Positions 11,541 to 45,500 of a stretch of 64,000 bases of DNA are shown piece by piece. The notes beneath the pieces are model-generated. The model saw only the letters and a list, made by a program, of their open reading frames with translations, was not told the DNA's origin and ran no database searches. The DNA lies in NCBI GenBank assembly GCA_000934665.2, contig JYFJ02000552.1:1-64000 (forward strand), written 5' to 3'. The first letter of the stretch is position 1, and every line of letters begins with the position of its first letter. The position numbers were made by a program, and so were the translations under genes. This DNA is from Catajapyx aquilonaris (taxonomy: Eukaryota).

Positions 11541-13670
11541 TCATAAATTGGGCAAAAACAGGTCGTCCAGCCACGAGTCCATGTTCTGGTTTGGTTCCGA
11601 GAACAGGTTTGAGCTTTCCTCCAGACACTGGTAAAATTCCTCGTTGTCCGTCCTGCTCGACGCTTCGTTGTCTCCTGCAGCCGACGAGCTCTCGTCGTTG
11701 CTGCTGTCGTACAGAGACACTGGGCTGTACGTGTACACCATCTCAGGAGGGCTCCTGTCCAGCGAGTTGCCCAGGACGGACAGAAGGTCGTACCTCGGAC
11801 TGGAGTTCCCCTGCTGACTCGGACCCAACAGCACCGACAGGTTGGGGATGTTATAACCCGTGTCATTTGGGCTCGCGTCACTTCCTGTCACTGAGATCTC
11901 AGGGGTGCTCATTTGAACCTGATCCTGGTGGCTCCCAGCCCAGCTATGTCTTTGGGAAGTATCTGATGAGAAATAAACAGGACGCATGTAATTCGATGTA
12001 TAGCATACACTGCAGGTGTTTCTCTAGTTAAAGCGGTAATAATGAACTGAAGATGCTCAATCTAATATAAGCAAACAAAGCTATCCCCAGGTCAATCCCA
12101 ATGTTTATTATGTAAATAAATCTGATGCGCGTACTAACTGATCTGGTCGTCTCCAGCGGCAGAAGCAGCAGCAGTTCCGACGGACAAATGTCGGTTCCTG
12201 TACTTGCGTATGTCGAATTGCGTGTAGGGACTGAGGTTGAGGTGTCCCAATGCCTCCTCCAGTTCTTCGACGTCACCTGGTTGCAGAAACACGTTGTCCT
12301 CCGTGTGCAGGTCGCTTATCTCCTGCAGGTCGCTCAGTTTCGATATGTACTTGGGAAACAAAACGGAGGAATTACGCCGACCGTATCGCCACTCCATGTA
12401 CCTGAAATTGACAAAAAGTTGGTAAGTCGCATCCAATACCCATGGGGGCAAATTAGCCTTACTTTTTGAGTATGAGGATGTATTTCTCCTGCAATGTTGA
12501 GACGCGGGCAGGGTCTGAGAGGCCTTCTCTTTCAGGGCAGAAGACGAGGAGCAGGATGAGGAGCATTATGATGGGTCTGTCTGGTCGAAGCTCCTGCATG
12601 CCCCTGATGAACCTCAGGTTGAGCTCGTATAGTTCAGGCACCAGCAGGCTCTTCAGTCCGTCCATCTCCAAGGCCACGGGGACTATCGCTTCCTATGTTG
12701 AAAGATGAGACACTGATGCTGAGAATGCTCATAGAGCTACTGCTTGGATGATGCTGCTTACCTGCTCTCCCGTGTGCAGGTACTGCGGTATGACATAGTA
12801 GTCCTTGTCCTTGTCATATGCGAGGGAACCAACCAGGAGACAAATCTCGAGCACAGCTGCTCGGATGAGGATCTGCTGGTCCTCTGGAGACAACGTGGCG
12901 AAAGATGGCATCATTTTCACCACGTGGTTGTATCTCAGGATCACCTTCGTGAACATGTGCGTCACCTGAAATAATTATTCACACTTTTTTTTTGGCTGAA
13001 CTATTTCGGGACCAGAGCAACTTATGTGAGAGGTTATTTCACAGCAAATGAAAATGTCAATCACCCTTTTACAGTATTTCTTCCCAAATTGTGTCAGATG
13101 AATGAACTGACCCTTTGCCCCCTCCTGGTCTCTTCATCGAAGGGGTACTCCCTTATGGACTCGGTGACCTTTGCCAGAAGGTACTGGATAACCATCTGCT
13201 CCTCCTTGTCCAGGAACTCCGGAAGCATCTTGGTGTCCGGGACGTGCGGCTCCAGCGTCCTCTTTCTGACGGACACCACCACCTGCGAGGACAGTCTCTT
13301 CTTCTCCAGCCTGGCTTTGAACCTCTTCCTCTCCTCCTCTCCCATCACCCATCCAGGTTCCATCCCTATGCTCAAACACTTTTGGAACCTGCACTTCTTG
13401 CACCTCTTTCTCCTCATCAGGGTTATCTGTCACCGTAAGATAATAGGGCTTGCTTTACTGGGCATGCAACCTAATATCACTTACCTCGCAGTTATTTCCG
13501 AACGTGCACACGTACGACTTGTACGTGTCGCCATGGACAGCTCTGAGGAAAAAGGCTTTGCAGCTGTCGCAGGAGAGTCCTCCGAAGTGGAAGCTCTTGG
13601 CTCGATCCCCGCACACGCCGCATATCTTGACAGGCTTCTCCGAATGGACAACACCGTATTTACCTGCCAT
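11541..13670 (-). CDS. Nuclear hormone receptor NR-A, NR1 family (HR96/HR97-like), about 539 aa
   Basis: Exons 13670-13485, 13426-13112, 12965-12762, 12692-12463, 12401-12139 and 11962-11541, in phase. C4 DBD CGVCGDRAKSFHFGGLSCDSCKAFFLR...CKKCRFQKCLSIGM; LBD signature KMMPSFATLSPEDQQILI; acidic tail. Confidence 0.9.
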
Positions 13671-13875
13671 TGTTGACCTGGCTAACTGGCCATGTGAGCC
13701 TGACGAGTGACGACCAAGAGTGTGAGTCGAGCTGTGGCCAGGCGTATTTGGCACAGCAGCCTAGCCCATGACGCCACTACGAAAGATAAAAAAAGGACGA
13801 TAACAACAACTACAAGATAACGCACGTAAGTGATTATCTATCTAGCAGTTTATTCAGTCTCGATCAATCAGAGTG

Positions 13876-16083
13876 TTAAATGTTTGGCGGCAACAGCAAG
13901 TCATCTATCCAAGCAAGGTCGCCCTCAAGGACACCTTTGTCCTCCAAAGTTTCTTGCTTCAGTTCAGGACAGCTTTGCAAGTCATGGAACCAGCTCTCCT
14001 CGCGGAATTCAGGAGTGTTTATGGATCCTTCGGACGAGCTCGTTGTGACGGAATGATGCGCACTGGTGTCCTCTTGGTCGTATAAGAATCCGAAATAGAG
14101 AGACGGGTCACTAGGACCAAATGGATCATCGCAAAGAATTGATCCATCAGGCGCAATGGCTGCAGGATAGTCGATGGGAGATGTTGATTCCTCAGGAGGA
14201 GGAGAGGCGGTTGGGTCGGATTGGAAAGGGCAAAGGGCATCTGTCTGTTGCGATTCACACGATGCATCTGCGGGAAGAAACACAGATTAAAGTTGTTTTT
14301 AAACTGCACATGAGCAAAGACAAGGGCATCCGTATCGCCTTTCAGTGTCATCATCTCTAGAGTCGAAAAGCGGACTTGATGCGAGGCAAAGAAGCTACCG
14401 GTAGCTTTGATATGAGCCTCTCGAGAGTTTAAACCATTCCCAACTGATGGAAGTGTATTATTTGTTACCATTGATTCCGGGCGACACGGGCCCATCAGCT
14501 CCGTACTTGCTGATGTCAATATGCTTGTAAGGGTTGAGACTGAGTTGTCCCAGCTTCTCCTGCAGTTCTTCCACGTCTCCTGGACCCAGACGCACGTGCT
14601 CTTCGGTGTAGTAGTCGCTCAGCTCCTGCAGGTCACTCAGTTTGGTCAGGAATTTGGGGAACAGCGTGGTTGCTGCACTTGCGCCGTACCGCCACACAGT
14701 GTACCTTTGTTCAGAATGAAGAGAGTGGAGCGGATCACTTTTGTGAGGAATTCCCATCATCACAGCTTACTTCTTCATGATGATGATGAACTTCTCCTGC
14801 AGGGCGGAGACTCTGGCAGGATCGGACAGCCCTTGTCGTTCGGGACAGCAGAGGACCAGGATGCCCATCAGCAACAGGATTCTGGCGTCGGGTTTCAACT
14901 CTTGGAAACCGCGGATGAATCGCAAGTTCTTCTCGTAGAGTTCGGGTGACATGATTTTCTTCATTTCCTCAACTTCCATCGGGACAGGAACTATCGCTTC
15001 CTGTTTTAGACAAATAGAAAATCAGTGAGTGATTCTTACTATAATCTGCATTCGAACCATTCTCTCTCTTATTCGCGTATGATCGAAGCAGTCCATTACC
15101 TCATTGTCCGACTTGGTGTACTCGTAGAGCAGATAGGTGTTACTGTCCTGGGCATAGGCACTGGCACCTGTGAGCAGGTACACTTCCAGTATTGCTTCTC
15201 GCATGAGTATGAGTTGGTCGTGTGCAGGCAGCGAAGCGAACGCAGGCAGGTTCCGGTTAACATGGATGCATCTCAGAACCACATTCACGAACACGTGCGT
15301 TGCCTGGAGTTAACGACAAGGCAACATGTTATTAGCAAATAACAAGTATCGTTCAGTAAGCACTGTCCATTCTAAAGAATTTTTTGTGTCACCAGAATGT
15401 GTTTCTGAATATGACCCACTGCACTCTGTTACCTTCTCTCCTTTTCGAGATGCAATGGCGAAAGGGTACTGTCGTATGGCATCTTTGAGGTTCTCTATCA
15501 ATGTCCTGACTGCATGTCTTTCTTCGTGGTTTAGGAATTCAGGGAGCCCAACCTTCTTCGGAGATGCGTCCAACGACCTTTTGGCCTCCTTCTTGGCCTT
15601 GAGTTTCTGCCTGTCCTCCTCGGACATGACCCACCTCACTTCCATCCCGTTCTTCAGGCACTTCTGGAACCGGCATTGCTGACATCCTCTTCTCTGGAAC
15701 ACCGATATCTGCCGAGAGAATATATATGCAGGGATACGAATATCATTGAACATAAATGGCATCAGAAGGACACATTGTGCGTACTTCGCATTTTCCGTTA
15801 TAGGCACATATGAATGTCTTGTAGGCTTCGTTCTGAACCGATCGCCTGAAGAAGGCCTTACAACTGTTGCAGGAGAAGCCTCCAAAGTGAAGGCTCTTGG
15901 CAAGGTCCCCGCACACGCCGCAAGCCTTCTTCTGGGTCCTTTCTAGCGACTGATAACCACGTAACGGGGAACTACCTGGATGGAGAGGGGTTTGCGTTAC
16001 TAAGCGTGACGTTTTCAATGGTGGTAAGAGATGGAACAGCACGTGACGAAATGCTCACAGATAGCTGGGGATTTCTTCCACAT
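13876..16083 (-). CDS. Nuclear hormone receptor NR-B, NR1 family (HR96/HR97-like), about 525 aa
   Basis: Exons 16083-16059, 15999(or 15975)-15785, 15708-15433, 15303-15100, 15000-14771, 14704-14469 and 14267-13876. DBD CGVCGDLAKSLHFGGFSCNSCKAFFRR; LBD RNLPAFASLPAHDQLILM. Confidence 0.9.
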
Positions 16084-16493
16084 CTGGGTTTTGTCAGCTG
16101 ATATCTTACACTGACAAGCAATAGCTCACATGCTCAACACAAAACGTATGGCAAGACCATTACGTCGCGTATGGGGATATAGTTTGTCTGGATCTGATGC
16201 GCTTATCGCATGCTTATCAAGCTCCGGCTTTTTATCACGTTACACTCTTTATTGGAAGTAGATAATGCCATCCAGTGTTAACTTTGCCTTCTAATTTTCA
16301 TACCTTGGCCTACTGAGCTGAAAATTGCCATTGCATTAATGTATGCAATGGTGATCAAAGTTTATCATAATGGATATTAAAAATTCATCGTGAATGTATT
16401 GTTTCAAACTATGAAGGGTAAAGAGTAAACTTCAGGCATGAAATTGCAATAACCAACGTAAGGCCATACCCAAGTAAGCCAAACAAATCACGT

Positions 16494-18555
16494 TTATTGT
16501 TTAAGTATTGGTAAGAACAAGTCGTCGATCCAGGCAAGATCGTGGTCTTCTACCAGCTGTCGATCTTGATGTGCAATCGTCGTCTCCTCAGGACACGAGT
16601 CCACCTGAACAGAATTTAGGATGTCTTGAAACCAACTATCCTCCCGAACATCAGGAGTGTTGATGGCACCATGTTCCTGATGACAGCATTTCTTCCCATC
16701 ATCTTCTGTGCATCCTCCTTTATCTATCTCCTTACTGTCGGCATCATGTTGCCCACTGCTCGAGTAAAACGAGCAGGCAGAGAGGGAGTTGTCCAGGTCT
16801 TCCAGCAGCAGCAAGGAGTCGTCCGGTACGCAACAGTCTTTGCTAGAGCCATCAGGATCGAGTTGGCCGATGATGTCTTGTAATGTCAACTGGTCACAGG
16901 AGGCACCTGCTCAGTGATATTCCAACCTGAGCCACAGCAGTACATTTCAACAAGAATAGAAGCATCAACTGACCTGTGCTGAAGTGTGCCTGTTGATGTC
17001 TGGTCTCCTGGTAGTGATCGATGTCGAACTGTGTGTACGGGTTGAGGTTGACTCTTCCAAACTTGTCGATTATCTCTTCTACATCCCCTGGCTCCAGATG
17101 CACATTCTCTTCTGTGCAGGAGTCGCTCAGCTCCTGCAGGTCGCACAGTTTGGACAGGTACTTGGGGAACAGCAAAGAAGAGTTGCACCTGCCATGACGC
17201 CAATCGATATACCTATAGAGCAGAAGAGGGATGAAGTAGAATACAGCTTGGGCACTATGACTCAGGAAGAAGCTGGTATAGGATTTAAGAAAATGCCTAA
17301 GGAAATTGTTACGCATCACTTTTTGAGTATCTGGGCGTATTTGTCCTGTAGGACAGCTATTCTGTCAGGATCGCTGAGGCCTTCTCTCTCCGGACAAAAG
17401 AGGATCAGGAGATCCAGGAGCAGGACGATGGGCATGTCCGCCTTCAGCTCCTGCATCCCCGCCAGAAAAGACAGGTACAGCTCGTACAGCTCAGGGGACA
17501 TTATCCTCTTCATCTCGTCCACCTTCATCGGGACTTGGACTATGGATCCCTGATGGCAAATGCACAAAATAACAGTAGCACACCATGAATCATCATGCAG
17601 AGTATTATTGTTGCCTATACCTCCGCGTCACTCTTGACGTATTGGAGAAGAAAGTATGTGTCGGTGCCCCTGTCGTAGGCGCAGACCCCAGTCATGATAA
17701 ATATCTCTAGGATGGCTGGCTTCAGGAGGATTTTTTGGTCTTGTAGTGGAAGGGAGCCAAACGAAGGCAGCTTTCGTAGCACATGTTTGCACCGAAGGAT
17801 CATCTGAGACAGAACGTGCGTCGCCTGAGGAATATATAGGTTGGACTATATTATTAGACAGAGAGGGGGGAGAAGAGAGAGAGAGAGAGTACAACTTGCC
17901 CTCTGTCCCTTCCTGGTATCCTCCGTGTACGGGTAGCATCGAATAGCTTCTTCGATATGATGTAACATGCATCGCACGACCGACTGCTCCTCTTCGTTCA
18001 GGTACTCGGGTATCTTGGACACCTCTGGAGAGTATGGCCCTATCTCCGACGCTGCCGACGACGACTCCGACGTCGCCCTTTTGGCCACTCTCTTGGCCTT
18101 CATCCTCTCCTTCTCTTCCTCCGTCATCAGCCAACCAGGCTCCATACCAATGCTGCGACACTTGGCAAACCGGCATCCCTTGCACAACTTCCTGCTAGGC
18201 ACTGTTATCTGGAATGCAATGCATGCTTGCAAAATAATAATTCGCACATTTTAAATGAAGTTGCAGTCCTATATACCTCACACCTTCCGTCTTTGATGCA
18301 GGCGAAGGACTTGTATGCCCCGTGTCTGACTGCTCTCCTGAAGAAGGCCTTGCAGCTGTTGCAACACACTCCTCCGAAGTGGTAGCTGTAAGCAATGTCC
18401 CCACACACCCCACATGGTTTCGGGTTCTCTACTCCAACACGGGGTGGACTGCAGATCTCGCCTGAATAAAAGGGGCTATCATGAGATATATCAGATCAGA
18501 CATCAGAGGGAATCAAAAAGGTCCACATACCAACAGGTGTAAATTTTCTCCACAT
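16494..18555 (-). CDS. Nuclear hormone receptor NR-C, NR1 family (HR96/HR97-like), about 534 aa
   Basis: Exons 18555-18531, 18461-18277, 18208-17900 (GC donor), 17824-17621, 17549-17320, 17212-16974 and 16906-16494. DBD CGVCGDIAYSYHFGGVCCNSCKAFFRR; LBD RKLPSFGSLPLQDQKILL. Confidence 0.9.
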
Positions 18556-19513
18556 AGCTTTAGGTGTCAGGAGTGACAAGGTACACCCAAATAATTCAGT
18601 CCTCAGAAGTATAGAAACTGCTGATACATCAAGTTGCGTCCCAGTTCAGGCGTGGCTCGAATGTTACACTTGCTTAGCTGCTATCTCGCCACTGCGCTCG
18701 AGATATCGTCGCGATAACAATGTGATAACACCAGTGGCCCATTACGGTCACACCAAGCAAATATGGATGTAATATTACTGTATAATTATAACACATTTTA
18801 CTGTCGGCTATACGTGTAGTGCTATATCCCTCACATGGATGGCGCATCTTCCCTCTCTGCACCCTATATACTGCATTATTCATTTTCCAGCAATAAATTC
18901 ATCCCTTTTGAGATTCCTGGTCCATTGTGACGTATAGGGTTCCAAATTTCCAAAAAGGACACAGCTGCTGCTATGTATTGGCTATATCAAGAGCTAATGG
19001 CTATATGCAATGCATACGTACTGTACGTACAGTTTAATGGATATTCCTTTTTACTTCACGATAACCGAAGTACCTACACAAATTACCAAATTATTGTACT
19101 TAACACTTAACACTTAAAGCACCTAAAAATGTAAAATAAATCAAACGTGTTTTATAATGAGCTGAAGTTGAAAAATATTTGTAAAATGCAGTAGAAAATA
19201 TTATAAAACTGATGCTATTTTGTGGTAGACCTGTTCAGTGTTCTGAAATAAATTTTCAAAACGTATACTGATGACATTGCAGTAGGCCTACCTGGCTGGT
19301 GTAAATGGAGCCAATAAAAATACGTCAGCGGTTAATAATTTGTGACCTTCAGTTCCCGAACTTTTCAGCAGTTCTAGTACAGCCCAGAAAATTTATTTAA
19401 TAGCACAGTACAAGTATATTTCTTGTCAGTCATTATAAGCCTGTCTTGCTGTGAATCTGGCGCCCTTATTCTTTACCATAAGTACATGTGAGAGAGAGCA
19501 GGAGTATATCGAA

Positions 19514-19580
19514 GTAACGCAGTGGTCTAGTGGTTAAGACGCTCTCCTCGTAACCTGAAGGTTGAAGGATCGAATCCTGA
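19514..19580 (+). repeat. tRNA-derived sequence (SINE head or tRNA pseudogene)
   Basis: A-box-like TGGTCTAGTGG (19523-19533) and B-box-like GGATCGAATCC (19567-19577). No intact acceptor stem seen. Confidence 0.45.
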
Positions 19581-19716
19581 AAAAGAAAAGACGTCGTTTC
19601 ATTTTTATCGCTGTAACTTTCTCTCTGCCTTACTTTACTTCGCATTTCTCATTTATTTCTCTTTGAAGTGCATCTGGTAAATAGGCTAGACCCTTCCAAC
19701 ACACACACTCTCGGTG

Positions 19717-19790
19717 CACCAGAGCGTGGTTCTGAGGTAGCGCATCGGACTCTCAATCGGGAGATGCGGGTTCAAATCCCGGATCTCCTT
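19717..19790 (+). repeat. Second tRNA-derived sequence
   Basis: A-box-like TGGTTCTGAGG (19728-19738) and B-box GGTTCAAATCC (19769-19779) at tRNA-like spacing. Confidence 0.4.
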
Positions 19791-19913
19791 GGTTGAGAGT
19801 CAGAAAAAAAAAAATTTGCAGCCGACATCTCTGGCCAAGATGGCGGCTGTTTCTTCGCAGTTTCCCCAACACTTCTTCAGAGGTGTGACAGGGAAGAGGG
19901 GAGAAAATTTTTT

Positions 19914-21122
19914 GGAAATTTTTAAGACACCTGCTTAATGGGAGGGGGCGGTCACTTTTTTCGAAGAAAAAAGTCAAAAATATAAAAAGTCAATTAAATG
20001 ATCAAGTGGCTTCGCTTGTGTTGTCCATCCCGGCAGCCCCCACCCTACGCACCCCATAGTCCCTACATTTGTCTTATACCTGGGTGTTCCATTCTCAAAC
20101 CTATCACCCCTCCAAATATTTAACCCTACAATTTAAACTATAGGTCCTATTAAATCACCAGCACATGCAAATGATTCGGCACAATTTTTAGGTCAATTCC
20201 AATGTATTGTTGCAGCCTGACCTTTGACCTGAAAGGCCCTAATATTAGGTTTTTGGTCAGGGGCCAGGCCCTACCTCGGTCTCCATCTGTCGGATCTCTC
20301 GTAATGAGACTGTACAGAGCACAGTAGGCTACATGCTGCACAGTAGTATGCCCCTAGCTAGCCAAATGTAGCAGTCCGCCTCTCCTGCTGGCAAGCGGGG
20401 CGGGGGTGGAAAGGGGGGAATATGGAAGGTCATAGAGAGAGACAGGAAGGTGACCAAGCCTACACGAAAATTCGCCTATCTACGTAAAACCGGGTCGACG
20501 ATCCGCTCGTCTCCTCCCACAGCAGAAGCGGGTGGGGATTTATTATTTTATTAATCCATAGAGCAATGCCACGAAGCAGTTGATGCCGAATGTCCGTCCT
20601 GATGACCCCAAGGAGGTGACGATGACCACTCGCCTACGTCACCTTCATACCAACTACGTTGGCTAGGTCATATACTACTATACTTCGCATCGAGAGATAT
20701 ACTGTATATCTATGTACTGTGCTCTGTACAGTCTCATTACGAGAGATCCGACAGATGGAGACGGAGGTAGGGTCTGCCCCCAGACCAAAAACCTAATACT
20801 AGGGCCTTTAAGGTCAAAGGTCAGGCTGCAACAAACCATTGAAAATGCCCTAAAAAGTGTGCTGATTAATTTGCATGTGCTGCTGATTTGACGGGACCTA
20901 TAGTTTAAATTGTAGGGTTAAATATTTGGAGGGGTGATAGGTTTGAGAATGGAACTCCCTAAGACAAATGTAGTCACTATGGGGTGTGTAGGGTGGGGGT
21001 TGCCGGGATGGACAACACAAGCGAAGCCACTTGAACATGTTACAGACTTTTTATTTTTTTGACTTTTTTCTTCGAAAAAAGTGACCGCCCCCTCCCATTA
21101 AGCAGGTGTCTTAAAAATTTCC
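19914..21122. repeat. Long inverted repeat (about 410-bp arms, 390-bp spacer), likely a non-autonomous element
   Basis: Arm 19914-20326 is the diverged reverse complement of 20715-21122, e.g. ttaagacacctgcttaatgggagggggcggtcacttttttcgaag versus its mirror at 21070-21114. Confidence 0.85.
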
Positions 21123-21689
21123 GAACTTCTACCCGTAGAAATTTTGATGACCTTTTCCTGATCCAGCACTGACACGTGATCACAGGAGGGGTAAAGAAAT
21201 CTCAAACTCCTGATCCAATTGATTGCCATGTTCATCTCTAAAGAATAATATTTCTGAACTGTTATTGCGCCAGTTGATTCTTGTGCTCCAATCGGCTCCA
21301 ACACTCTTCGGCTTGGACGCTGACCTCACCTGGGTCTCCACTGTTGCTTTGAAATATGTTATTGGAGTGTTGGAAAGCAAGCAGAGTTGCTACCTTGTGC
21401 ACAACATTCCCAACCCTGGATTTCATGACCATTCCTGCAATTTTGTCTTGTACTAATATTGGCAGTGATGGTTTGAAGCCCTAAATTACTGTAGTTGAGA
21501 CAAGAAATAATTTACCGCCTGAATTTATTTTCAAAACCTTCACAAAGTCGCAAAGTGCAATGGTATAATCGAATCAGTTATTACAAAAAGGGCTTAAGTC
21601 CACTGATCTAGAGGAATAAATTATTATGCTTGTCCCTGAAATATTTGGTACTTACAACACAAGATAATTCATGCGAGTTTTATTATTTT

Positions 21690-24001
21690 TTACACATTTG
21701 GTAGGAACATGTCATCGATCCAGGAAAGATCACTGTCATCCGCCAACTGTCGATTGTGATGTACAGTCATTGTCTTGTTGGGACACACATCCACATGAAC
21801 AGAGTTTTTCAGATCGAGGAACCAACTCTCCTCCCGAACATCAGGAGTGTTCACAGCCTCATCTTCCTGATGAGGGCATTTCCTCATCTCATCTCCTGTG
21901 CATCCTCCTTTATCTGGCGCCTTACTGATAGTTTCATTTTGTTCATCGCTATCATTGTTGAAGTGTTTAGAGTAAAATGAGGAGGCAGAGAGGGAGTGGT
22001 CCAGGTCTTCCAGCAGCAGCGAGGTATAGTCCGGTACGCAACAAGCTTTGCTCGAGCCAGGATCCAGTTCCTTGATGATGTCTTGCAATGTCAGTTCGTC
22101 GCAGGAGGCACCTGCGCAGTGAGATTCCAAGCTGAGCCACACAGCAGTACATTTCAACAAGAATATAGAAGCACTGACCTGTGCTGCAGTTTGCCTGTTG
22201 ATGTCTGGTCTCCTTGTAGTGGTCTATGTCGAACTGTGTGTACGGGTTGAGGTTGACTCTGCCCAGCTTGTCGATTATCTCTTCCACATCGCCTGGCTCC
22301 AGATGCACATTCTCTTCTGTGCAGGAATCACTCAGCACCTGCAAGTCGCACAGTTTGGACAGGTACTTGGGGAACAGGAGGGAAGAGTTGCGTCTGCCGT
22401 GGCGCCAATCAATGTACCTGGAGCAGAAGGACACAGATAATTCTGGAGAATGGAAGGGCACTCATTGTATTTGCGAAAGTTGCATTATGATGTAAATGCA
22501 GCCTCACTTTTTGAGGAGAAGGATGTACTTGTCCTGCAGGGCAGCTACTCTTTCAGGGTCACTGAGGCCCTCCCTATCTGGGCAGAAGATGATGATGAGG
22601 CCAAGTATGAAAATGATGGGCAGGTCAGCCTTCATCTCCTGCATCCCAGCCAGGAAGGACAGGTACTGCTCATACAGCTCAGAGGACATTATCCTCTTCA
22701 TCTCCTCGACCTTCATCGGAACTTGGACTATGGATTCCTGAAGATGAAAAATGTGGGCTTACCGATTCATATGAGATCAGTAATTCAGTATTGGAACCCT
22801 CAAAGATGTTTTGTTATACCTGTGCGTCACTCTTGACAGATTGAAACAAGAGGTACGTGTCAGTGTCTCTGTCATAGGCTCTGACGCCTGTCAAGATGAA
22901 TATCTCCAAGGCAGCTGGCTTCAGGAGTATTTTTTGGTCTTCCACGGGTAGGCAGGCAAAAGGAGGTAGGCTTCGAAACACATGCTTGCACCTAAGGATC
23001 ATGTTCGACACCACATGGGTCGCCTGTGGAATGTATGCAATCTTAGTGCTGAAAACCGCTTAAGAAACCCCAAAATGTCGTCAAGAAGAATGCTTCTGAA
23101 TTCCTCCGAGGTTCTACTTTAGCCATTTAACATGCATAAACTTCGATATCTGTGGCTTTACCATAAATATTCATTCACCCTGAATAAGTCATATTTTGAT
23201 ATCTTCGTGTTTTTTTTCGTCATACTATTTTCATTCTTTTCTACTTGATTTTCACCCTGAGTAGACCTACTGTAGCTGAAATATTTTTAGAAGTCCTTTA
23301 GGATTCATATGATAATTATTATTTTCATAGATTCTCATAACTGCTGTATAGTGGCCAACTTGCCCTCTGTCCCTTCCTGGTCTCCTCCATGTATGGGTAG
23401 CACCGAATGGCTTCTTCGATATTGAGTAACATGCATCGCACAACCAACTGTTCCTCTTCATTCAAGTACTCGGGTATCTTCGACACATCTGGACAGTATG
23501 GCACCTCCTCCAACGACGACTCGGACATGGCCCTCTTGGCCACTCTCTTGGCCTTCATCCTCTCCATCTCTTCCTCCGTCATCAACCAACCTGGCTCCAT
23601 ACCAATGCTGCGACACTGGGCGAACCGGCATCCCTTGCACAACTTCCTGCTAGACACTGTCATCTGGAATGCATTCTTCTAAGTAATTTGCATTGGAATT
23701 AAGTTGCAGGCCTACCTCACACTTTCCGCCTTTGATGCAGATGAAGGATTTGTATGCCCCATGTCTGACTGCTCTCCTGAAGAAGGCCTTGCAGCTGTTG
23801 CAGGACACTCCTCCAAAGTGATGACAGTAAGCAATGTCACCGCACACCCCACATGGTTTTGGGTTCTCTATGCCAACACGGGGTGGACTGCAGACCTCAT
23901 CTGAATTTTTTAAGAAGGGCTATAATGAGACGTCCGGCCAGATCATGAAGTGAGAAATTACATACTAATCAGCACTTACTGACAGATATTCTCCGCAGCA
24001 T
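21690..24001 (-). CDS. Nuclear hormone receptor NR-D, NR1 family (HR96/HR97-like), about 533 aa; closest paralog of NR-C
   Basis: Exons 24001-23980, 23900-23716, 23663-23364 (GC donor), 23023-22820, 22737-22508, 22417-22179 and 22111-21690. DBD CGVCGDIAYCHHFGGVSCNSCKAFFRR. Confidence 0.9.
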
Positions 24002-25184: not shown

Positions 25185-28100
25185 TCACACGTCTTCTGAA
25201 AACAAGGATAAATCTGGCAGATACAAATCACCTACCCATGACAAATCATCATTCAAGAAATCAATGTCTTGAAATGTGATTGGTTCTGAAAACAAGCCTG
25301 TACTGTCATGGAAGTCATTGGCATCATCTGAAAGTTGGTGGCCTTCATCAATGTTTTCAGACATGTCAAAGGTAAAGAGCGAACTATTATCGGGACTGTA
25401 CTCTTCGTTGACTGCATCAGACGCACCATGTTGTTCATGCTGGCCATCAGGGCTTGCTGCTGGCAATGGGCTGATTGAGAAAGAATTAGTTTCCTCGCTG
25501 TTACCATTTCCTAAATTAAGGAACGAGTCAACGAGAGAACTGCTTGGCAGGCTTGAATCTTCCGGCAATATTCCATCTTGCGAGCACAGCAACAAGGCCA
25601 TATCTTCATTCACACCACCAAGATCCAAGTTTTGAAATGCTTCCGAGGCAGAAGTGGTGCTATCGGTCTGTCTGACACCATCAAACTGGCCCGCACTACT
25701 GCATATTCCGATAGTATCAGACTGACTGTTGCTGTCACCCAGGCCAATACTATCACTTATGCCAACACCATCCAACAGGCCATCACTGTCACACTGGGCA
25801 ACCCTCTCGCACATTCCAATATCTGGTAGACCACTCGAGTCCCACTGGCTGATCATGTCACATACGTCGAATGTGTCCAACAGGCCAATACTGTTAGCCG
25901 GACTAATATCATACTGATTATCTGATCCATCTATGCCATCATTGGAGACACTTGGAACTATTTGGAGGGCATTTTCACTTTCCAATGGTTGAGTACTAGT
26001 CTTGTCCTGCTCAATGGCATTCAAGAAGTAATTATCACGTTGGCGAAACACACTTTTAATCCTAGTGAGCAATGTCTCGTCCAGTTGGAAATACTGAGAG
26101 TACTCCTTTCCGACCACTTCAATCACTCCACTCGACATACCTGGTGAAGAAGAAAAAATTACTAGTATTGGAAAATATTTAAATATTGCAAAGGCTGTAA
26201 AACTAGCCTATCAGTTAAAATTAGTGCAACTACCCAATATTATGGATTCTACCTTCTTGTCATCACAATTACATTTGAATGTAATGTACGCGTATATTTC
26301 ATTCATTACTGGCTTCCCAAAAGATGATACTAGGCCCAGAATTATAGCAAGATGTAATAATAAAATGCACTGTCGTGCCCCAACCATTCCGTTCATTTGA
26401 CAGCCCCGGCCGAGCCTTGTATTTGCATATGTCAAACTGCGTGTATGGGTTGATGTCCAGCCTCCCAAAAGCCTCCTGCAATTCCTCCACGTCTCCAGGT
26501 CCCAGGCACACATTGTCCTCTGTATGAAGGTCGCTCAGCTCTTGCAGGTCACTCAGTTTGGTCAGCAGCTTTGGAAACAGCAGTGAAGCTCTACTGCACC
26601 CATACCTCCACTCCATGTACCTGAAAAAGTGTGGGTTCTATGAGACAGTTCCCATTGAATAAACCACAGATAATAATCACATATTCGGCATACTTTTTGA
26701 GTATGAGTATGTACTTGTCCTGGCAGGCAGAAACGTGGGCGGGCTCCCGGAGTCCAGTGCGTTCAGGGCAAAATATGACCAGAAGACCCAGCAGCATTAT
26801 GGTATGCTGGTCAGCCTCCAAGGCTTGGACTCCTTGGATGAACCTCATATTCACTTCAATCAGCTTCGGCGACATAATTTTCTTCAGCTCTTCCATCTTC
26901 AGTGACACCAACACTGTTGTGTTCTGCAACCAACAACAAAATATTACATTTGTACATTATGTGCCATAAACTGGGCATCCAATAATTATATTATGATATT
27001 GTGGGATAATTTGGTGCTTTATCTGTTCAGAAGGCTGTCGCAGAAGATGAGTCATGCTGCGGAATCTAATCTTAAACACTTCAAATACTCTGGCCATTAA
27101 TTAACTTTGTCATGCACTGATATGCAAAAAACAAAGCCACAACTTAAGTTGGGTTCATGCAAGTATCATTGCCTTTGTTTTTAGGTCACTGTGGTTGGGA
27201 GATGCCCATCTTGTTGTCAGGCAAGTTGGTCCAGATTGAGAGGAGTCTTAACCACAACAATCCAAATAGAGAGACTCCCATGTGCACCAAGCTTGAACTC
27301 ACAATCAGAAAGTACCCAATGACTCCGTACCTCTGAGGTGGTTGGTTACATTTTTATTTCTCGCTGGATGACCCGAAGCTAAGTATCCCAAGTACTCCTC
27401 AAGGCCCTGTCCCATGCAGCACTTTCACGTCTAGGCAGTTGTCACATTGTGTATAAAATACCAGAAAGGTGTATACTTACAGTGTCAGGTAAATATTGCG
27501 AGATGACGTAGTAGTCGTTTTCCTTGTCGTAGACAAGGGCTCCCATAAGGAAACATATCTCGAGCACCCCTGCCCGGATCAGGATTCGTTGGTCCTCTGG
27601 CAGCAGAGCCGAAAATGACGACAGCATCCGAACCATGTGGTCACATCGGAGTATCAGTTTCCCAAACATGTGAGTTGCCTGAAACATAATAGACTGTAGA
27701 ATATGGAAACATCCAAAAAACAAAACTGAATTTCAAAATGAAATGTTCCGAATCACTAATTATCGAGAATCTTTGTACATTGCATGCCCCCTCTCGTTAG
27801 GTCTGCGTATTCAGAGTGTTTCTTACTAATATGTCAGCATACTTTGCCGGCCAGACAACATACTAGTACGAAACACAACCTGCTGTTAATGCAATATGTC
27901 CAGTCCCATAATTTTTCCAGTGATTTTGTGGGACTACATGGGTTGTACAGTCCTATCAATTTTACCTTATGTCCTTTGGTTTGCTCCGAGAAGGGATACT
28001 GTCTTATTGATTCAGCCACTGTTTCCATCAGCTCCTGAATCGCTTCCTGCTCCTCCCGGTTCAGAAATTCTGGCAGCCTCTTGGCATCAGGCTTGTAGGG

Positions 28101-30761: not shown

Positions 30762-30874
30762 ATGAGATTTTTCGTCTCACTCCTCGTTTTTTCCCTCACC
30801 ATTTTGGCAATCGAAAGCGCTGTAAGTTATTATCCAATAATAATAACAATAACAATAATAATAATAATAATAAT

Positions 30875-30945
<71 letters not shown>

Positions 30946-37917: not shown

Positions 37918-38140
37918 TACGAGGGCCAGTCAAACAAACTGAGACTTATTATTTATTATTTATGTTATAAATATACAGAGAATAAATCAGTTCATGACGG
38001 TGAATGGGATCGTGCTCAGAATGGATTGAAGTACGAAAACACCGATATTCTTGATCGAATATTCCACGATCCCAGGCGAGGTGACACCGGGGTGACATAG
38101 GTTCACCAATATTCAACCGTTGAAGTTTTGCTTCCATTTG
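37918..38140 (-). mobile_element. Possible internally deleted mariner-like relic
   Basis: TACGAGGGCCAGTCAAA resembles a mariner terminus, and minus-strand MEAKLQRLNI resembles a mariner N-terminus. The second terminus was not found. Confidence 0.3.
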
Positions 38141-39695: not shown

Positions 39696-40558
39696 ATGAA
39701 GGTCGTCCTCTGTCTCGTCGTGCTGGCTGCATGCGCTGCTCTTATTGAAGGAGGAAAGGTAAACACTTTCTTGGTGCAAATCAACATGGGTATGTTTATT
39801 TAACAGTTGTCTTTTCTCAATTAGTCTAAGTGCAAATGCAGCGGCCCAAAACTGATCAGTGCTAACAGTGCATGTAAGAAAGAAACGAAGGACGGCGATA
39901 AAAGCGTGAGTAAAAATATAATTATATTTGTAATAATACTTGACTACATTAATGAAGCATAATATTCTTTATCAATACTTGTAATGAGAGAAAATTAAGC
40001 CATGGACGACCCTGAGCTCTGATGGGGTGGTATGTGTGTGGCGGGAGGGGGGATCCCCGGGATTGAGATCGACCCAGACCCTTACTACATCTGTGGGCGC
40101 GTACTGTATACGTGACCGCAGGGCCACCCCACCTCCCCACTATAACAGTAGAATAACACATTTTGTGTTTGTATTACTGTATATTCAATTGTAAATAAAA
40201 GCGGGATTTGATGGGCTGCGAGGACTAGTTTTACTAGGTCAGTCCAGAAATTTATCGGTAAAGTGTAACATACGGTACCTACATTTAACACCATAAACAA
40301 TATCATTATTATAAATCTAACATCACAATGCTTTGGTTCCAGAAATGTTTACACTGCATATTAAAAAAAACCGGAGAAGTAAGTAGGTCTAATTGGAGAT
40401 AAATAAGCAGAGTTTCAATTAAACTAATCCTAAATTGTTTTACTTTGTCTGTTTTAAAGGCTTCATTGAAGGCAGCACTTAATAACTGTCAAGAAGAACT
40501 GGGGGGACTACCCGACAATTTTAAAACCGTCATCGATTGCTTAAAGAGCAAATGTAAG

Positions 40559-40648
<90 letters not shown>

Positions 40649-41497
40649 GGTGGTGGTGATGATGATGAGGATGATAATGATGATGATTATGATTATATGA
40701 TGATTATGATGATGATGATGAACTCAAGTATGAGATTTTTTTGCCCTCACGCACACATAGGGCTGGGCATGGGACGTGGTACAGTACATTTGTGCACATT
40801 TTGCATGATTTTATCTGGCATCCTCTTTTTTCTAGAGCAGTTTGCAGGTTTCTTTAGGGTATCGTGAAAAATTATGAAAATGTTGAATGATTCGTCTATT
40901 TGTCATATGGGCGACGATGTAAGCTGACAAGGGACACTTTCCAAGTGCCACTCACCGATTCTCTTGAAATTCGGTCGAATTCGGTACATTGCATTGGTAG
41001 CCCACCCCAAGGTATAAAAACCGCACCTATAATAATTACCTGCTCAAAATGACCCCGTGACCACTCGTAAAAGGAAAACTCCAAATCCCCATTTTTGACG
41101 GCGTCTTCAAGTAACTTTCGTGGGAAATCATGACCTAGTGCATTATTAGACAGGAAATATCGCGAAATGTTCGAAATATCAAGCAGTTTATACCCAGAAT
41201 AATATGCTGACTACTCTGTGAACCGCAAATAGTAATTAATAGAACACCACTAGTGAGTCTCCCATGGAGTATGGAGCATCAATTTTTAATGCATCACTAG
41301 AGCATTATAAGAGCATTAAAATATGTTTTACATAAATTTAAAACATATTTTTTTCTCTTGTGTATCATGTGTAAGATTCAAAGAAAAGTCACTTTATTCC
41401 CTTTCTTTCAGGCGGCTCCAATTGCAAAAAAGGAAGTTGCGACAAAGGCTACTCTGATGCGTGTGTGTGTGTCGAGAATGAGGATATGATTTGCTAA
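39696..41497 (+). CDS. Small secreted Cys-rich protein S2 (about 119 aa), paralog of S1
   Basis: TATA run near 39615. Exons 39696-39758, 39825-39905, 40343-40378, 40460-40553 and 41412-41497. Protein MKVVLCLVVLAACAALIEGGK|SKCKCSGPKLISANSACKKETKDGDKS|KCLHCILKKTGE|ASLKAALNNCQEELGGLPDNFKTVIDCLKSK|CGSNCKKGSCDKGYSDACVCVENEDMIC*. AATAAA near 41563. Confidence 0.8.
39998..40138 (-). repeat. Degenerate SINE head related to the 49221 SINE, in intron 2 of S2
   Basis: Minus-strand gggaggtggggtggccctgcggtcacg...aagggtctgggtcgatctcaatcccgggga resembles gggagatgaagtggcgccgcggtaacg...aaggtcctgggttcaatccccacccgggg. Confidence 0.4.
40559..40647. repeat. (AAT)n microsatellite followed by degenerate (GAT)n, in intron 4 of S2
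   Basis: Directly visible. Confidence 0.95.
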
Positions 41498-42555: not shown

Positions 42556-45500
42556 TCATACATTAACTGAGAATAATCTTTCAAGCCATGACACCTCATT
42601 GTTCAGGAAATCTGTGTCCTCAAAGGTGAATTGTCCCGACACCACATCGGGGACATTTTGAAGATCTTGGAAGAAATCACTGTTGTTGTCAAAGCCGTGA
42701 CATTCTGAGCAGTTATTTTCACTTCCATATGACCCATCTGAAGTAACGGGCACATTATTGGGATAAGTCAAATCAGAATAATAGCCATCAAATTCAGTAG
42801 TGTTGGCAGCAGCACTATCAGGGACACAGTACTGCTCATACCGGTCATTACTTCCATTATCTGATGTTTCGTGGCTCACTTGTGAATATGACACTGATGT
42901 CGTACAGTAATTGACAGACTCGTTTTGTTTTTCTGCACAGCTTGCTGAGGAATTGTCTAGCGTAGGCACAACATTTTCCAAGTCACACTCGAAATTAGGC
43001 AAGAAAGAAATGTCAAAATCTTCAAATGTGGCATCTTGAATGGAGTCAACTAAGGACTCGTACCCCAAAAGTCCATCCGTAAATGTAGTTGATCCTTCAT
43101 CAGAAGCATCTGTAAGGGTTTTAAAAATTATGATAACTTGCTGTTTCAGTGCTAGGCTTCATTTTCAAACATATGAGAGTATGATTGTAATGTACTTGTA
43201 CAAATAAATATTGTAAGTGACTTTCAAATCTTCAATATTTTTCCGTTTAATAGTTTTCTTGTAAAATAAAACTTGTCGACTGATATTTACGTTAATTTTT
43301 TTACCACACTGAGTTTCCCCAAGCACATTCCATATTGATATAAACTTTGCCAGTCATTTAACATGTGTGAGGCGGGAAGACAAACAATAATATATATTCT
43401 ACACACACTGTGCAGGGGTTTGCCATTTCAATGGATAGTAACAACTAATAAGAAGGCATACTGACCTGTGCACATGTACTCTTTATTTGTTGATGTGTGC
43501 CTGACTTTGTACTCACACAGATCAAACTGTGTGTAAGGATTTACATTGAGGCTGCCAAAAGCCTCCTGCAATTCTTCAACGTCATTGGAACCCAGGCACA
43601 CATTATCTTCAGTATGCAAATCGCTTATTTCTTGAAGGTCACTCAGTTTTGTCAGCAGTTTTGGAAACAACACAGAAGCATTTCGAGGACCATACTGACA
43701 TTCCATGTACCTTAACGAGAGAAAAAAAAACTTCATATGACATTTAATTTAATGAAAAATTACATTATGCCTAGGTCAAATGAGTTGAATTCACACCTTT
43801 TCAATATGAGTATGTATTTCTCCTGAATAGAGGACACTCGCTCAGGGTCAGATAGTCCGGCACGTTCAGGACAGAATATTACGAGAAGGCAAAGAAGCAT
43901 TGATGTTTTCTGATCTGGTTGAAGGTCCTGGAAGCCTTTTATGAATTTCCTATTTCGTTCACACAATTCTGGCATCAACACTTTTTCCAGTTCTTCAATT
44001 TCCAGTGTCACAGGAATCCATTCTTCCTACAGAGGGGTTGGGAGAGAGAACAAATAATTATGCATAAGAGAATCTGTATAAAATCTTGCCAATTCATAAT
44101 ATGCCACCTTCCTGTTCCGCTTTTCAGTTGGTAAAACAATGGACCAGAGAAAAACCATCAAAAGTTATGGGAACGTTTACCTGTCAGTACAGTTCAACTA
44201 CTGAACTGTCCAGTTAGAGCTTTGTTAAAAATCACAATTAGCTGCAAATTTCAATGTATTTTCTTACAAATACTTTCAGAGGTTATCGAAAGTAGGTATT
44301 AGTTGTTAATACAAGGTCAATTACTATTAGTACAGATAGTAATAGATGGCGGTCTTATGAGTCCAACCACTGACATTCGTTTGTAACCATTCAGACAAGC
44401 CCAAGGAAGCAGCATGGGGTTCCGCACACTGCGTTAGAACATGTGGTTTCAGTCTATTGGGATCAGGGCCACGTGTAAAGGCATACATAATGTGCAAATT
44501 AAAGCTTAACTAGTTCATTCAAGTGGTCTTACCTCCGTATCATGTACATATTGTGGTATCTTGTAGTAGTTCTTTTCTTCATCATAGTTGGCAGCCCCCT
44601 GAAGGAAGCAAATTTCAAGAATCCCTGCTCCTAGTAAAATTCTCTGATCCCCAGCAGATAATTCAGCAAATAACGGCAGCATCTTGATCATGTGATTGCA
44701 ACGCAAAAGGAGCTTTGCAAGCATGTATGTTGCCTAAGAAATCATATTATACAATACGTATTACAATATTAAATACCCTAGACAAAGGGTTTCTAATTTA
44801 GTACAACAAACTTCTACTGTTAACTCCTAATCAGTAGTTGATAACTTCATGTAACGTGCAGGCCCTCTCCACAATTTGGTTAACTGGAGAGGTAAGATCA
44901 TAATATTTACGACATGCAGTTTTACCAATGGCACAGTTAATCACTGTCAAAAACCTTTTCAGAAGAAATATTGGCAGATTTACTGCAGCGGTGCTTTTAT
45001 CTACAGCAGGCACAGTCTGTTTGGCGTTACAACAAAAATGGACTTACCTTCTGTCCTTTCCTCCTTTCTGCTGAAAGTGGATATTGCTTTATAGATTCCC
45101 TGACTGTGGTCATTAATTCATTGATTACAACCAATTCCTCCTCGCTAAGAAATTCTGGCAATTTCTGAGGGTTAGGATTGTATGTCTCCAACTCCTTTCT
45201 TCGTAAAGGCTCTGATTTTTTAAGATCTTGTTTGGACTCCTTCAGTTGCTTCCTCTCATCTTCACTGCGGACCCAGGCAGGCTCCATGCCTATGCTTCGA
45301 CAACTGTCGAAACGACAACTTTGGCAACACTTGCGCCTCAGAGACCGCATCTAATTTGAGACAAGCATTTAGGAAATTGGTTATTAAGTCTCTATACTTG
45401 CATAAAATCCATTCAATATACCTCACAGTTTCCATCAAAAGCACATATGTAGTCCTTGTACAATTCACGTTGCACAGCACGTCGGAAGAAGGCCTTACAG

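What the first reader, a model, noticed from the sequence alone, without database searches (positions are those of the whole stretch)
11541..43109. Conserved C-terminal W-x-D-D-L-F-L-P motif at the end of a long acidic tail in all six receptors
Seen: each gene has a terminal exon of about 130-318 aa of acidic, low-complexity sequence that barely aligns except between C and D. Yet the ends match: A MDSWLDDLFLPNL*, B DLAWIDDLLLPPNI*, C DLAWIDDLFLPILKQ*, D DLSWIDDMFLPNV*, E DLSWVGDLYLPDLS, F EVSWLERLFSVNV*. A second motif lies about 25-30 aa upstream: B EESWFHDL, C EDSWFQDI, D EESWFLDL, F SDFFQDL, A EEFYQCL. Known: acidic phi-x-x-phi-phi motifs act as activation domains or as LxxLL-like groove binders. 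Inference: a possibly undescribed F-domain module giving ligand-independent activation or auto-occupying the coactivator groove.
Basis: partly seen in the sequence, partly recalled or inferred. Interest (0 to 1): 0.75.

Follow-up and report, generated by a model that had tools for sequence, protein, structure and literature searches.

The report
Conserved acidic tail-end motif in receptors
Six neighbouring hormone-receptor-type genes of an arthropod-like animal each end in a floppy acidic tail whose last dozen residues carry one shared tryptophan-leucine-phenylalanine motif, most likely a small docking helix that switches genes on, which is a real but fairly ordinary kind of feature.

Summary
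Six minus-strand nuclear receptor genes (A-F) each have a last exon of 129-317 codons. It is acidic and mostly unalignable, and it ends in [DE]-x-[SA]-W-[ILV]-x-x-[LM]-[FLY]-L-P, which is degenerate in F. This is the best shared 11-residue block of the tails (z 5-15; 0 of 300 shuffles).

Spliced contigs of one public run join the tail exon in frame to the last ligand-binding-domain exon in B, C and E. In A the only junction seen creates a stop codon; a donor 4 nt upstream would keep the frame.

The genes are NR1-type. Their closest relatives are arthropod HR97/NR1L-like proteins with long F regions. None of 51 related proteins has the motif, and no paper prints it.

AlphaFold leaves the tails disordered except for short helices at the motifs. 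A published composition rule for acidic activation domains is met at the tail end in 5 of 6 genes.

Best reading (about 0.5): a lineage-specific acidic activation or coregulator-docking motif. Self-docking into the coactivator groove, nuclear export and a C-terminal ligand or degron remain open. Interest is moderate.

The parts
11541..11962 (-). Gene A tail exon (139 in-frame codons plus stop). The terminal motif is at 11550-11582 and the weak second motif NEEFYQCL at 11622-11645.
   Evidence: ORF. The acceptor at 11962 is joined to 12135 in an RNA-derived contig. That junction makes a TAA stop. A GTTAGT donor 4 nt upstream (exon end 12139) would keep phase 1, as in the paralogs.
13876..14267 (-). 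Gene B tail exon (129 codons plus stop). The terminal motif is at 13888-13920 and the second motif EESWFHDL at 13978-14001.
   Evidence: Contig junction 14267|14469 is in frame.
16494..16906 (-). Gene C tail exon (136 codons plus stop). The terminal motif is at 16509-16541 and the second motif EDSWFQDI at 16620-16643.
   Evidence: Contig junction 16904|16972 (cut +2) is in frame. AlphaFold2 puts helices at tail residues 89-98 and 126-130.
21690..22111 (-). Gene D tail exon (139 codons plus stop). The terminal motif is at 21699-21731 and the second motif EESWFLDL at 21810-21833.
   Evidence: The junction is inferred from homology to C, with canonical GT..AG and phase 1. No contig covers the tail.
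25185..26140 (-). Gene E tail exon (317 codons plus stop). The terminal motif is at 25215-25247. The first 50 residues are predicted to be folded.
   Evidence: Contig junction 26138|26383 (cut +2) is in frame. AlphaFold2 puts helices at 289-298, 302-305 and 310-313, and a confident hairpin plus helix at 1-50.
42556..43109 (-). Gene F tail exon (183 codons plus stop). The degenerate terminal motif is at 42565-42597 and the weak second motif NSDFFQDL at 42661-42684.
   Evidence: The junction is inferred: donor G|GTCAGT after ...YMCT, acceptor ACAG|AT at 43109, phase 1.
12140..12400 (-). Gene A last LBD exon (helices 10-12 plus the conserved LNLSPYTQFDI segment). The paralogous exons are B 14470-14703, C 16975-17211, D 22180-22416, E 26386-26619 and F 43467-43709.
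   Evidence: Alignments A1 and A5. The profile finds arthropod NR1-type receptors. Translations are checked.
13458..13760 (-). Gene A first zinc-finger exon. The DBD exons of the six genes start their CxxC at about 13622, 15922, 18414, 23853, 28468 and 45559.
   Evidence: Pfam zf-C4 on gene C exons. Regex scan of the window finds six DBDs, all on the minus strand.

Best explanation
The six genes are a lineage-specific tandem expansion of NR1-type, HR97/NR1L-like nuclear receptors. Each carries a long, acidic, intrinsically disordered F region.

The conserved end (acidic-x-S/A-W-phi-x-x-L/M-F/L/Y-L-P) is a short linear motif under purifying selection, and so is the related upstream S-W-F-x-D-L copy in B, C and D. 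The motif is disordered when free and folds into a one- to two-turn amphipathic helix on a partner.

The most likely partner class is the general coactivator machinery (Mediator or CBP/p300-type activator-binding domains). That would make the tail end a C-terminal acidic activation domain that adds to, or acts independently of, the ligand-dependent AF-2 helix.

Shown: the motif, its conservation, its splicing to the LBD, the predicted disorder with local helices, and the acidic/aromatic composition. Inferred: the partner and the activating effect.
For: 1. Conservation against a diverged background. The terminal block is the best shared 11-mer (z 5.3-15.5; 0 of 300 shuffles). Tail bodies are 17-36% identical. 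The paralogs are old: dS is at least 1.2 or saturated for 14 of 15 pairs.
2. Relaxed but real constraint. C-D dN/dS is 0.52 over the tail, against 0.05 and 0.19 in LBD exons.
3. Transcribed and spliced in frame to the LBD in B, C and E.
4. AlphaFold2 on tails C and E gives mean pLDDT 51.7 and 46.7. Helices and local pLDDT maxima (62-66) fall on the motifs: C 89-98 and 126-130; E 289-298, 302-305 and 310-313.
5. Composition rule for acidic activation domains (39-residue tiles, equations 1-3 of PMC10550315, passages read). Tiles overlapping the tail end pass eq1 in 4 of 6 tails (A, B, E, F). They pass eq2 and eq3 in 5 of 6 (all but D). No tile passes in LBD exons E3 and E4 (0 of 406 tiles). The AF-2-bearing exon E5 passes in 3-4 of 6 genes.
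6. Trp is rare in the tails (1-2 per tail) and one always sits in the terminal motif.
7. From recalled knowledge, not tested here: W/F/L embedded in acidic residues is the hallmark of VP16, Gcn4, p53 and EBNA2-type activation motifs.
Against: - No functional datum exists.
- Gene D fails all three composition rules (net charge of its last tiles is only -3 to -4).
- The rule has modest precision in its own paper (8.6-18% overlap with a gold-standard list).
- The strict position within 2-9 residues of the C-terminus, and the conserved L-P and N-[LIV] end in 4 of 6, are not needed for an activation domain.
- In gene A the only junction seen removes the tail from the reading frame.
- The AlphaFold models are low-confidence and rest on six sequences.
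Confidence: 0.5

Rival explanations
1. Built-in pseudo-coactivator. The core [ILV]-x-x-[LM]-[FLY] of the terminal motif is a phi-x-x-phi-phi (LxxLL/FxxLF-like) helix. It would dock into the AF-2 coactivator groove of the same receptor or its dimer partner, either auto-inhibiting it or locking helix 12 in the active position.
For: - The phi-x-x-phi-phi core is present in 6 of 6 ends.
- A helix is predicted there.
- The presumed charge-clamp positions are kept: K/R three residues before the L-P-x-F of helix 3, and E/D in D-V-E-E-[LI]-x-[ED]-x-[FL]-G (sequences). Their mapping onto the canonical clamp is my inference from recalled receptor alignments.
- From recalled knowledge: the androgen receptor uses FxxLF/WxxLF motifs for such an N/C interaction.
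Against: - The motif is embedded in acidic residues, whereas groove-binding boxes usually have neutral or basic flanks near the acidic helix 12 (recalled).
- The invariant residue is the Trp just before the core, not a core leucine.
- A flexible spacer of more than 100 residues is not needed for self-docking.
- There is no structural support of any kind so far.
Confidence: 0.15
2. Nuclear export signal. The end would be a CRM1-type leucine-rich NES that keeps these xenosensor-like receptors shuttling or cytoplasmic until activated.
For: All 6 of 6 ends match at least one NES spacing class (1a, 1b or 1d; patterns recalled from the NES literature). In A and B it is the only such match in the whole tail. 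NES motifs often sit in acidic, disordered context (recalled).
Against: - The patterns are very permissive.
- The register differs between paralogs (1a in A, 1b in B-E, several in F).
- In the common 1b register the invariant Trp falls on a non-hydrophobic 'x' position.
- C, D, E and F have further matches elsewhere in the tail.
Confidence: 0.15
3. A ligand or degron that depends on the free C-terminus. The free carboxyl end plus the L-P-N-[LIV] end would be read by a PDZ-like domain or a C-degron ubiquitin ligase, setting receptor turnover or tethering.
For: The motif always lies 2-9 residues from the stop. Four of 6 proteins end in N-[LIV] (A, B, D, F). The position has been kept through old duplications.
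Against: C ends in ILKQ and E has 9 extra residues, so the very end is not conserved. The best-conserved residues (S/A-W-phi-x-x-L-F) lie upstream of the last three. A similar motif recurs internally in B, C and D.
Confidence: 0.1
4. No function of its own: a slowly decaying remnant of the ancestral tail sequence, or a nucleotide-level constraint such as a 3' end-processing or regulatory element.
For: There are only six sequences from one genome. No orthologue is available to test constraint independently.
Against: Synonymous sites are saturated between most paralogs while the motif stays 6-10 of 11 identical among A-E. Changes within it are conservative (I/L/V, L/M, F/L/Y, S/A). The reading frame and the stop position are kept in all six.
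Confidence: 0.05

Closest known systems
HR97 / NR1L receptors of non-insect arthropods (Daphnia HR97a/b/g; 12 NR1L genes in Tigriopus japonicus; Portunus PtHR97)
   Same: - NR1-type DBD with an x-S-C-K-A-F-F-R recognition helix (D or N in place of E).
- LBD closest to arthropod proteins of this group.
- Lineage-specific tandem expansions (PMC2774871 and PMC4247118, passages read).
- A long C-terminal F region (PtHR97 residues 402-914; PMC12938566, passages read).
   Different: - None of 51 related proteins carries the W-x-D-D-L-F-L-P end or the E-E-S-W-F motif.
- The decapod F regions fetched are Gln-rich rather than acidic.
- Placement inside NR1L by phylogeny was not done here.
- The main HR97 paper (Li et al. 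2014) is not held, so its text could not be checked.
Acidic activation domains of the VP16 H1 / CITED2 / Gcn4 / p53 type ('acidic exposure' model; PMC10550315)
   Same: Disordered, net negative, with W/F/L clustered in a short helix-prone stretch. The published net-charge and W+F+Y+L thresholds are met at the tail end in 5 of 6 genes.
   Different: Here the motif is fixed at the extreme C-terminus of a nuclear receptor F region and has a conserved L-P after it. Its activity is untested. Gene D does not meet the thresholds.
Androgen receptor FxxLF / WxxLF motifs and coactivator LxxLL boxes (recalled knowledge)
   Same: An aromatic or leucine phi-x-x-phi-phi core that forms an amphipathic helix. 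Such motifs can bind a receptor's own AF-2 groove.
   Different: The motif is C-terminal rather than N-terminal. It is strongly acidic inside and around the core. The Trp-to-Leu spacing is W-x-x-x-L-F, not W-x-x-L-F. No binding is shown.
Other functional F domains of nuclear receptors (ER-alpha, GR, EcR; review passages in PMC7999165; the ER-alpha C-terminal 14-3-3 site in PMC10302166, search listing only)
   Same: Hypervariable, often disordered regions after helix 12 that modulate dimerisation, partner binding and transcriptional output. In ER-alpha a partner docks at the very C-terminus.
   Different: Sequence, charge and motif are unrelated, and there is no phospho-site logic here.

Membership tests
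Nuclear receptor superfamily | Two-zinc-finger C4 DNA-binding domain | tested here: met
   Pfam zf-C4 at 5.9e-11 on the gene C exon. PDB DBD hits reach 3e-08. All six genes have both finger patterns.
Nuclear receptor superfamily | Helical ligand-binding domain | tested here: met
   Pfam Hormone_recep scores 22.5 bits on one exon, just under the 23.5 cut-off. Exon profiles hit TR LBDs at 6e-10 and VDR LBDs at 2.6e-06 in the PDB.
HR97 / NR1L | NR1J/NR1L-type base-contact helix E-S-C-K-A-F-F-R (HR97a/b differ by one residue; PMC2774871) | tested here: met
   The helix is D-S-C-K-A-F-F-[RL]-R in A, E and F, and N-S-C-K-A-F-F-R-R in B, C and D. That is one substitution at the first position.
HR97 / NR1L | Closest LBD relatives are arthropod HR97-like proteins | tested here: inconclusive
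   The last-LBD-exon profile gave 46 hits, the best at 80 bits. The 10 of 20 clusters looked up that name an organism are all arthropods. Their names are automatic (E75-like, TR-beta-like, VDR B) and none is labelled HR97.
HR97 / NR1L | Phylogenetic placement with NR1L and apart from NR1J, NR1I and MAR (NR1Q-S) | not tested
   No labelled reference sequences could be fetched, and spliced proteins cannot be handed to the search tools.
HR97 / NR1L | Extended C-terminal F region | tested here: met
   The tail exon alone has 129-317 codons. Relatives have 270-610 residues after the matched LBD segment.
Acidic activation domain (composition rule of PMC10550315) | A 39-residue tile with net charge <= -9 and W+F+Y+L >= 7 (eq2), or charge -13 to -8 and W+F+L >= 6 (eq3) | tested here: met
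   Tiles overlapping the tail end pass in 5 of 6 tails, with D failing. The stricter eq1 passes in 4 of 6.
Acidic activation domain | Activates a reporter when tethered to DNA | not testable with these tools
   Needs a GAL4-fusion assay.
LxxLL / FxxLF groove-binding box | A phi-x-x-phi-phi core in a helix | tested here: met
   The cores are IDDLF, IDDLL, IDDMF, LDDLF, VGDLY and LERLF. A helix is predicted over them in C and E.
LxxLL / FxxLF groove-binding box | Binds the AF-2 groove of a receptor LBD | not testable with these tools
   A spliced LBD plus tail cannot be folded here. Needs peptide-LBD binding assays.
CRM1 nuclear export signal | Hydrophobic spacing pattern (classes 1a-d, 2, 3; recalled) | tested here: met
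   All 6 of 6 ends match a class, but in different registers and with the invariant Trp off-pattern in B-E.
CRM1 nuclear export signal | Leptomycin-sensitive export | not testable with these tools
   Needs a cell assay.

The most novel reading that the evidence does not exclude
The tail end is a self-contained regulatory switch. The W-phi-x-x-L-F helix would dock into the receptor's own (or its partner's) AF-2 groove as a built-in pseudo-coactivator. The cell would choose between tail-bearing and tail-less receptors by picking one of two donor sites 4 nt apart, as the gene A junction hints. This would be a ligand-independent on/off layer not described for any nuclear receptor family.
Probability: 0.1. 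Interest if true: 0.7.

Novelty: new member of a known kind. Interest (0 to 1): 0.4.

Why it matters
HR97/NR1L receptors are poorly understood, arthropod-specific relatives of the xenobiotic sensors HR96, VDR, PXR and CAR. Nothing is known about how their unusually long F regions work.

A short motif kept through old duplications gives a concrete handle:
- It marks the part of the F region to delete or mutate.
- It predicts a ligand-independent activation or docking function.
- It can serve as bait for finding the partner.

The general lesson is modest. It adds one more case of a conserved acidic-hydrophobic peptide in an otherwise free-running disordered region of a transcription factor.

Tried and rejected
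- Word-indexed protein searches found nothing: the gene C tail exon against longer proteins, the gene C hinge exon against longer proteins, and the six-tail alignment A7 against proteins of 70-555 residues. No relative of the tail could be collected this way.
- Complex prediction (collected). The gene C LBD was given as three exon-encoded chains, with the last 60 tail residues as the partner. The score was 0.01 against a mark of 0.34, controls were not run, and the alignments were not used. The verdict is 'no answer', which counts neither for nor against docking.
- The look-up of sequencing runs. No holder on record as RNA was listed, only one run of unknown kind. Its contigs turned out to be spliced. 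The D tail exon has no contig cover, and F was outside the 17.6 kb laid.
- Of the 14 joints, 12 are GT..AG introns of these genes. One (13264 to 28392, 25-nt side) looks like a paralog mis-join and one is a strand flip in a repeat. Both were ignored.
- PDB sequence search with the last LBD exon alone gave 0 hits at E <= 10. One call had a frame error and was replaced by profile searches.
- No whole genome is held for the window.
- Earlier-findings look-ups by place, sequence and relatives returned nothing for this locus.
- Li et al. 2014 on HR97 is not held.
- An LC3-interaction-type reading of the second motif was considered and dropped. The W-x-x-x-L spacing does not fit, and the F-x-D-L core has Trp at a disfavoured flanking position (recalled consensus).
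- My first automatic splice-site enumeration was too permissive to use. Boundaries were set from the contig junctions and paralog-conserved positions instead.


Full report
**What is there.**
- The window holds six nuclear receptor genes, all on the minus strand. I call them A-F, from low to high coordinates.
- A scan for the two zinc-finger patterns finds six DNA-binding domains and no more.
- Pfam finds zf-C4 and a near-threshold Hormone_recep match on single exons of gene C.
- Exon profiles hit thyroid-hormone-receptor and vitamin-D-receptor ligand-binding domains in the PDB.
- Each gene has the same six coding exons from the first zinc finger onwards, with introns of about 60-560 nt at conserved positions and phases.
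- The last exon holds 139, 129, 136, 139, 317 and 183 in-frame codons in A-F. This is the 'tail'.

**Check of the observation.**
E continues for nine residues after the motif, and F keeps only S-W-L-x-x-L-F.
- The tails have 15-23% Asp+Glu, 2-8% Lys+Arg and net charge -17 to -52. Each has only one or two Trp, one of which is always in the terminal motif.
- Outside the motif, tail pairs are 17-36% identical (65% for the young pair C-D). The 11-residue end is 6-10 of 11 identical among A-E and 2-5 of 11 against F.
- I left D out as a near-copy of C. The terminal block is then the highest-scoring shared ungapped 11-mer whichever tail is the anchor: z = 15.5, 11.3 and 5.3, with 0 of 300 composition-preserving shuffles reaching it.
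- The paralogs are old. Synonymous divergence over the LBD exons is at least 1.2 or not computable for 14 of 15 pairs, and 0.75 for C-D.
- For C-D, dN/dS is 0.05 and 0.19 in two LBD exons and 0.52 in the tail.
- The second, upstream motif is solid in B, C and D (E-[ED]-S-W-F-x-D-[LI]; 27-34 residues before the terminal Trp).
- It is weaker in A and F (F/Y in place of W-F), and I see no convincing copy in E.
- As a five-way block it does not beat shuffles (18 and 64 of 300).

**Is the tail part of the protein?**
- One public run of unknown kind holds 34% of the sampled words of A-C.
- Laid on 11400-29000, its contigs skip 12 introns with GT..AG on the gene strand, so they derive from spliced RNA.
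- They join the tail exon to the last LBD exon in A, B, C and E.
- Translating the joined pieces shows one open frame from the LBD through the tail to the shared motif in B, C and E.
- In A, the only junction seen (exon end 12135 joined to 11962) creates a TAA across the junction. That transcript encodes a tail-less receptor, and the 139-codon tail ORF lies one base out of frame.
- The donor homologous to that of the paralogs is GTTAGT (GTCAGT in C, D and F). It lies 4 nt upstream and would keep the phase-1 frame.
- Contigs cannot show minor isoforms. Gene A may make both forms, or may have recently lost its tail. This stays open.
Their junctions are inferred from canonical sites at the homologous positions.

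**What family.**
- The DNA-recognition helix reads D/N-S-C-K-A-F-F-R. That is one residue away from the E-S-C-K-A-F-F-R stated to be shared by NR1J members and Daphnia HR97g; HR97a and HR97b also differ from it by one residue (PMC2774871, passages read).
- A profile of the last LBD exon was searched against 1.84 billion representative proteins. It gave 46 hits at E <= 0.001, the best at 80 bits.
- I looked up 20 clusters, and 10 name an organism. All 10 are arthropods: two shrimps, a krill, a springtail, two mites, a spider, a mayfly, a centipede and a millipede.
- The best hits have 270-610 residues after the matched segment. Long F regions are therefore a family trait, as noted for the crab HR97 (F region 402-914; PMC12938566, passages read).
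- Lineage-specific NR1L expansions are known: three genes in Daphnia and twelve in Tigriopus (PMC2774871 and PMC4247118, passages read).
- The species' own proteins are not in the databases. Earlier notes of this scan call the genome arthropod-like and, once, springtail-like. My hits agree only as far as 'arthropod'.
- I did not build a tree with labelled references, so 'HR97/NR1L-like' is a well-supported label, not a proven placement.

**Is the motif known or shared?**
- None of the 51 related proteins fetched has a W-[ILVM]-x-x-[LM]-[FLY]-type end or an E-E-S-W-F-type motif.
- Searches with the tails themselves found nothing.
- Six strings taken from the motifs occur in none of about 8.4 million full texts.
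- The HR97 papers I could read do not mention a tail motif.
- Li et al. 2014, the main HR97 paper, is not held, so I cannot exclude a mention there.
- An older hallmark is the segment right after the presumed AF-2 helix, [LI]-N-[LI]-N-P-Y-[TP]-x-[WF]. The six genes share it with shrimp, springtail and unnamed hits.
- Other lineages have their own conserved ends. One is an acidic Ser-rich ...STSSEGSEK..SD end in mite- and spider-type hits; another is an amphipathic acidic end shared by two unnamed hits.
- The end of the F region thus seems to be a recurrent site for lineage-specific short motifs.

**How it most likely works.**
- AlphaFold2 leaves tail C disordered (mean pLDDT 51.7) apart from three short helices. 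Two of them lie exactly on the second motif (89-98) and the terminal motif (126-130), where pLDDT has local maxima of 62-63.
- In tail E, about 240 residues are disordered (pLDDT 28-48). Confidence rises to 60-66 over the last 30 residues, with helices at 289-298, 302-305 and 310-313.
- This is the signature of a binding motif that folds on its partner.
- I applied the published composition rule for acidic activation domains (39-residue tiles; net charge against W+F+Y+L; PMC10550315, passages read).
  - Tiles overlapping the tail end pass the original rule in 4 of 6 tails and the relaxed rules in 5 of 6. D fails.
  - No tile of the two central LBD exons passes.
  - The AF-2-bearing exon, a known activation function, passes in some genes.
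- With the invariant Trp next to Leu/Phe in acidic surroundings, the most economical reading is a C-terminal acidic activation (coactivator-docking) motif, duplicated in B-D.
- I put this at about 0.5. Only the sequence features are shown; the partner and the effect are inferred.

**Rivals.**
- Self-docking (about 0.15). The presumed charge-clamp residues are kept (the mapping is my inference). However, the acidic context and the invariant Trp outside the core fit less well, and nothing structural supports it.
- Nuclear export signal (about 0.15). All six ends fit a permissive export-signal spacing. They do so in different registers, and the invariant Trp is off-pattern in four.
- Free C-terminus ligand or degron (about 0.1). 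The fixed distance of 2-9 residues from the C-terminus and the N-[LIV] end in four genes suggest a free-end ligand or degron, but C and E break that pattern.
- Neutral remnant (about 0.05). This is unlikely, given saturated synonymous sites and conservative replacements.

**Verdict.**
- The feature is a new, lineage-restricted instance of a familiar kind of element: an acidic-hydrophobic short linear motif in a disordered transcription-factor region. It sits in a receptor family whose long F region is already on record.
- The gene A junction adds a small twist, a possible tail-plus/tail-minus choice through donors 4 nt apart. This deserves raw-read RNA data.

Noticed in passing
window 12135-12139 (gene A, minus strand), joined to 11962: The only RNA-derived junction seen for gene A uses a GTACGC donor. 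This creates a TAA stop across the splice junction, giving a tail-less product. The paralog-homologous GTTAGT donor lies 4 nt upstream and would keep the tail in frame. The two donors may act as a tandem-donor switch.
   Followed up: partly
window 12200-12240, 14503-14543, 17011-17051, 22216-22256, 26419-26459, 43509-43549 (minus strand); proteins P0001, P0002, P0004, P0009, P0039: A segment [LI]-N-[LI]-[NS]-P-Y-[TPK]-x-[FWI] lies directly after the presumed AF-2 helix. It is shared by the six genes and by shrimp, springtail and unnamed relatives. It is an older hallmark of the family's F region than the terminal motif, and I found no description of it.
   Followed up: partly
proteins P0007, P0022, P0024, P0025, P0028, P0037, P0038, P0042; and P0003, P0008: Other lineages of the same receptor group have their own conserved C-terminal ends. 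The mite- and spider-type hits end in an acidic Ser-rich ...[DE][DE][LM]STSSEGSEK..SD. Two unnamed hits share an ALTP..M.EL.D.LE..S.L end.
   Followed up: no
window 25989-26138 (minus strand), first 50 residues of the gene E tail exon: Only in gene E does the tail exon begin with a segment that AlphaFold2 folds with confidence. It forms a beta-hairpin plus a 26-residue helix with pLDDT 71-88. It has no Pfam match.
   Followed up: partly
window 17898-17899 and 23362-23363 (minus strand, genes C and D): The intron after the hinge exon starts with GC (GCAAGT) in C and D, where the four other paralogs have GT. These are likely GC-AG introns. The RNA contigs did not cover them.
   Followed up: no
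window 52046-53557 (minus strand): A 504-codon open frame encodes a multi-C2H2 zinc-finger protein (Pfam zf-C2H2, 8e-34).
   Followed up: partly
window 55239-55706 (plus strand): An open frame with a mariner/Tc1-like look (my impression from the translation) has no Pfam match. It may be a decayed transposase.
   Followed up: partly
window 4949-5524 and 8811-9182 (plus strand): These open frames are Gly/His/Tyr-rich and low in complexity (GGHGGYGG-type repeats). They are possibly structural or cuticle-like proteins. The one scanned, 8811-9179, has no Pfam match.
   Followed up: no
window about 30800-31000 and 40550-40700: Long trinucleotide microsatellites read as poly-Ile, poly-Asn or poly-His in several frames. 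They lie in the 14-kb gap between genes E and F.
   Followed up: no
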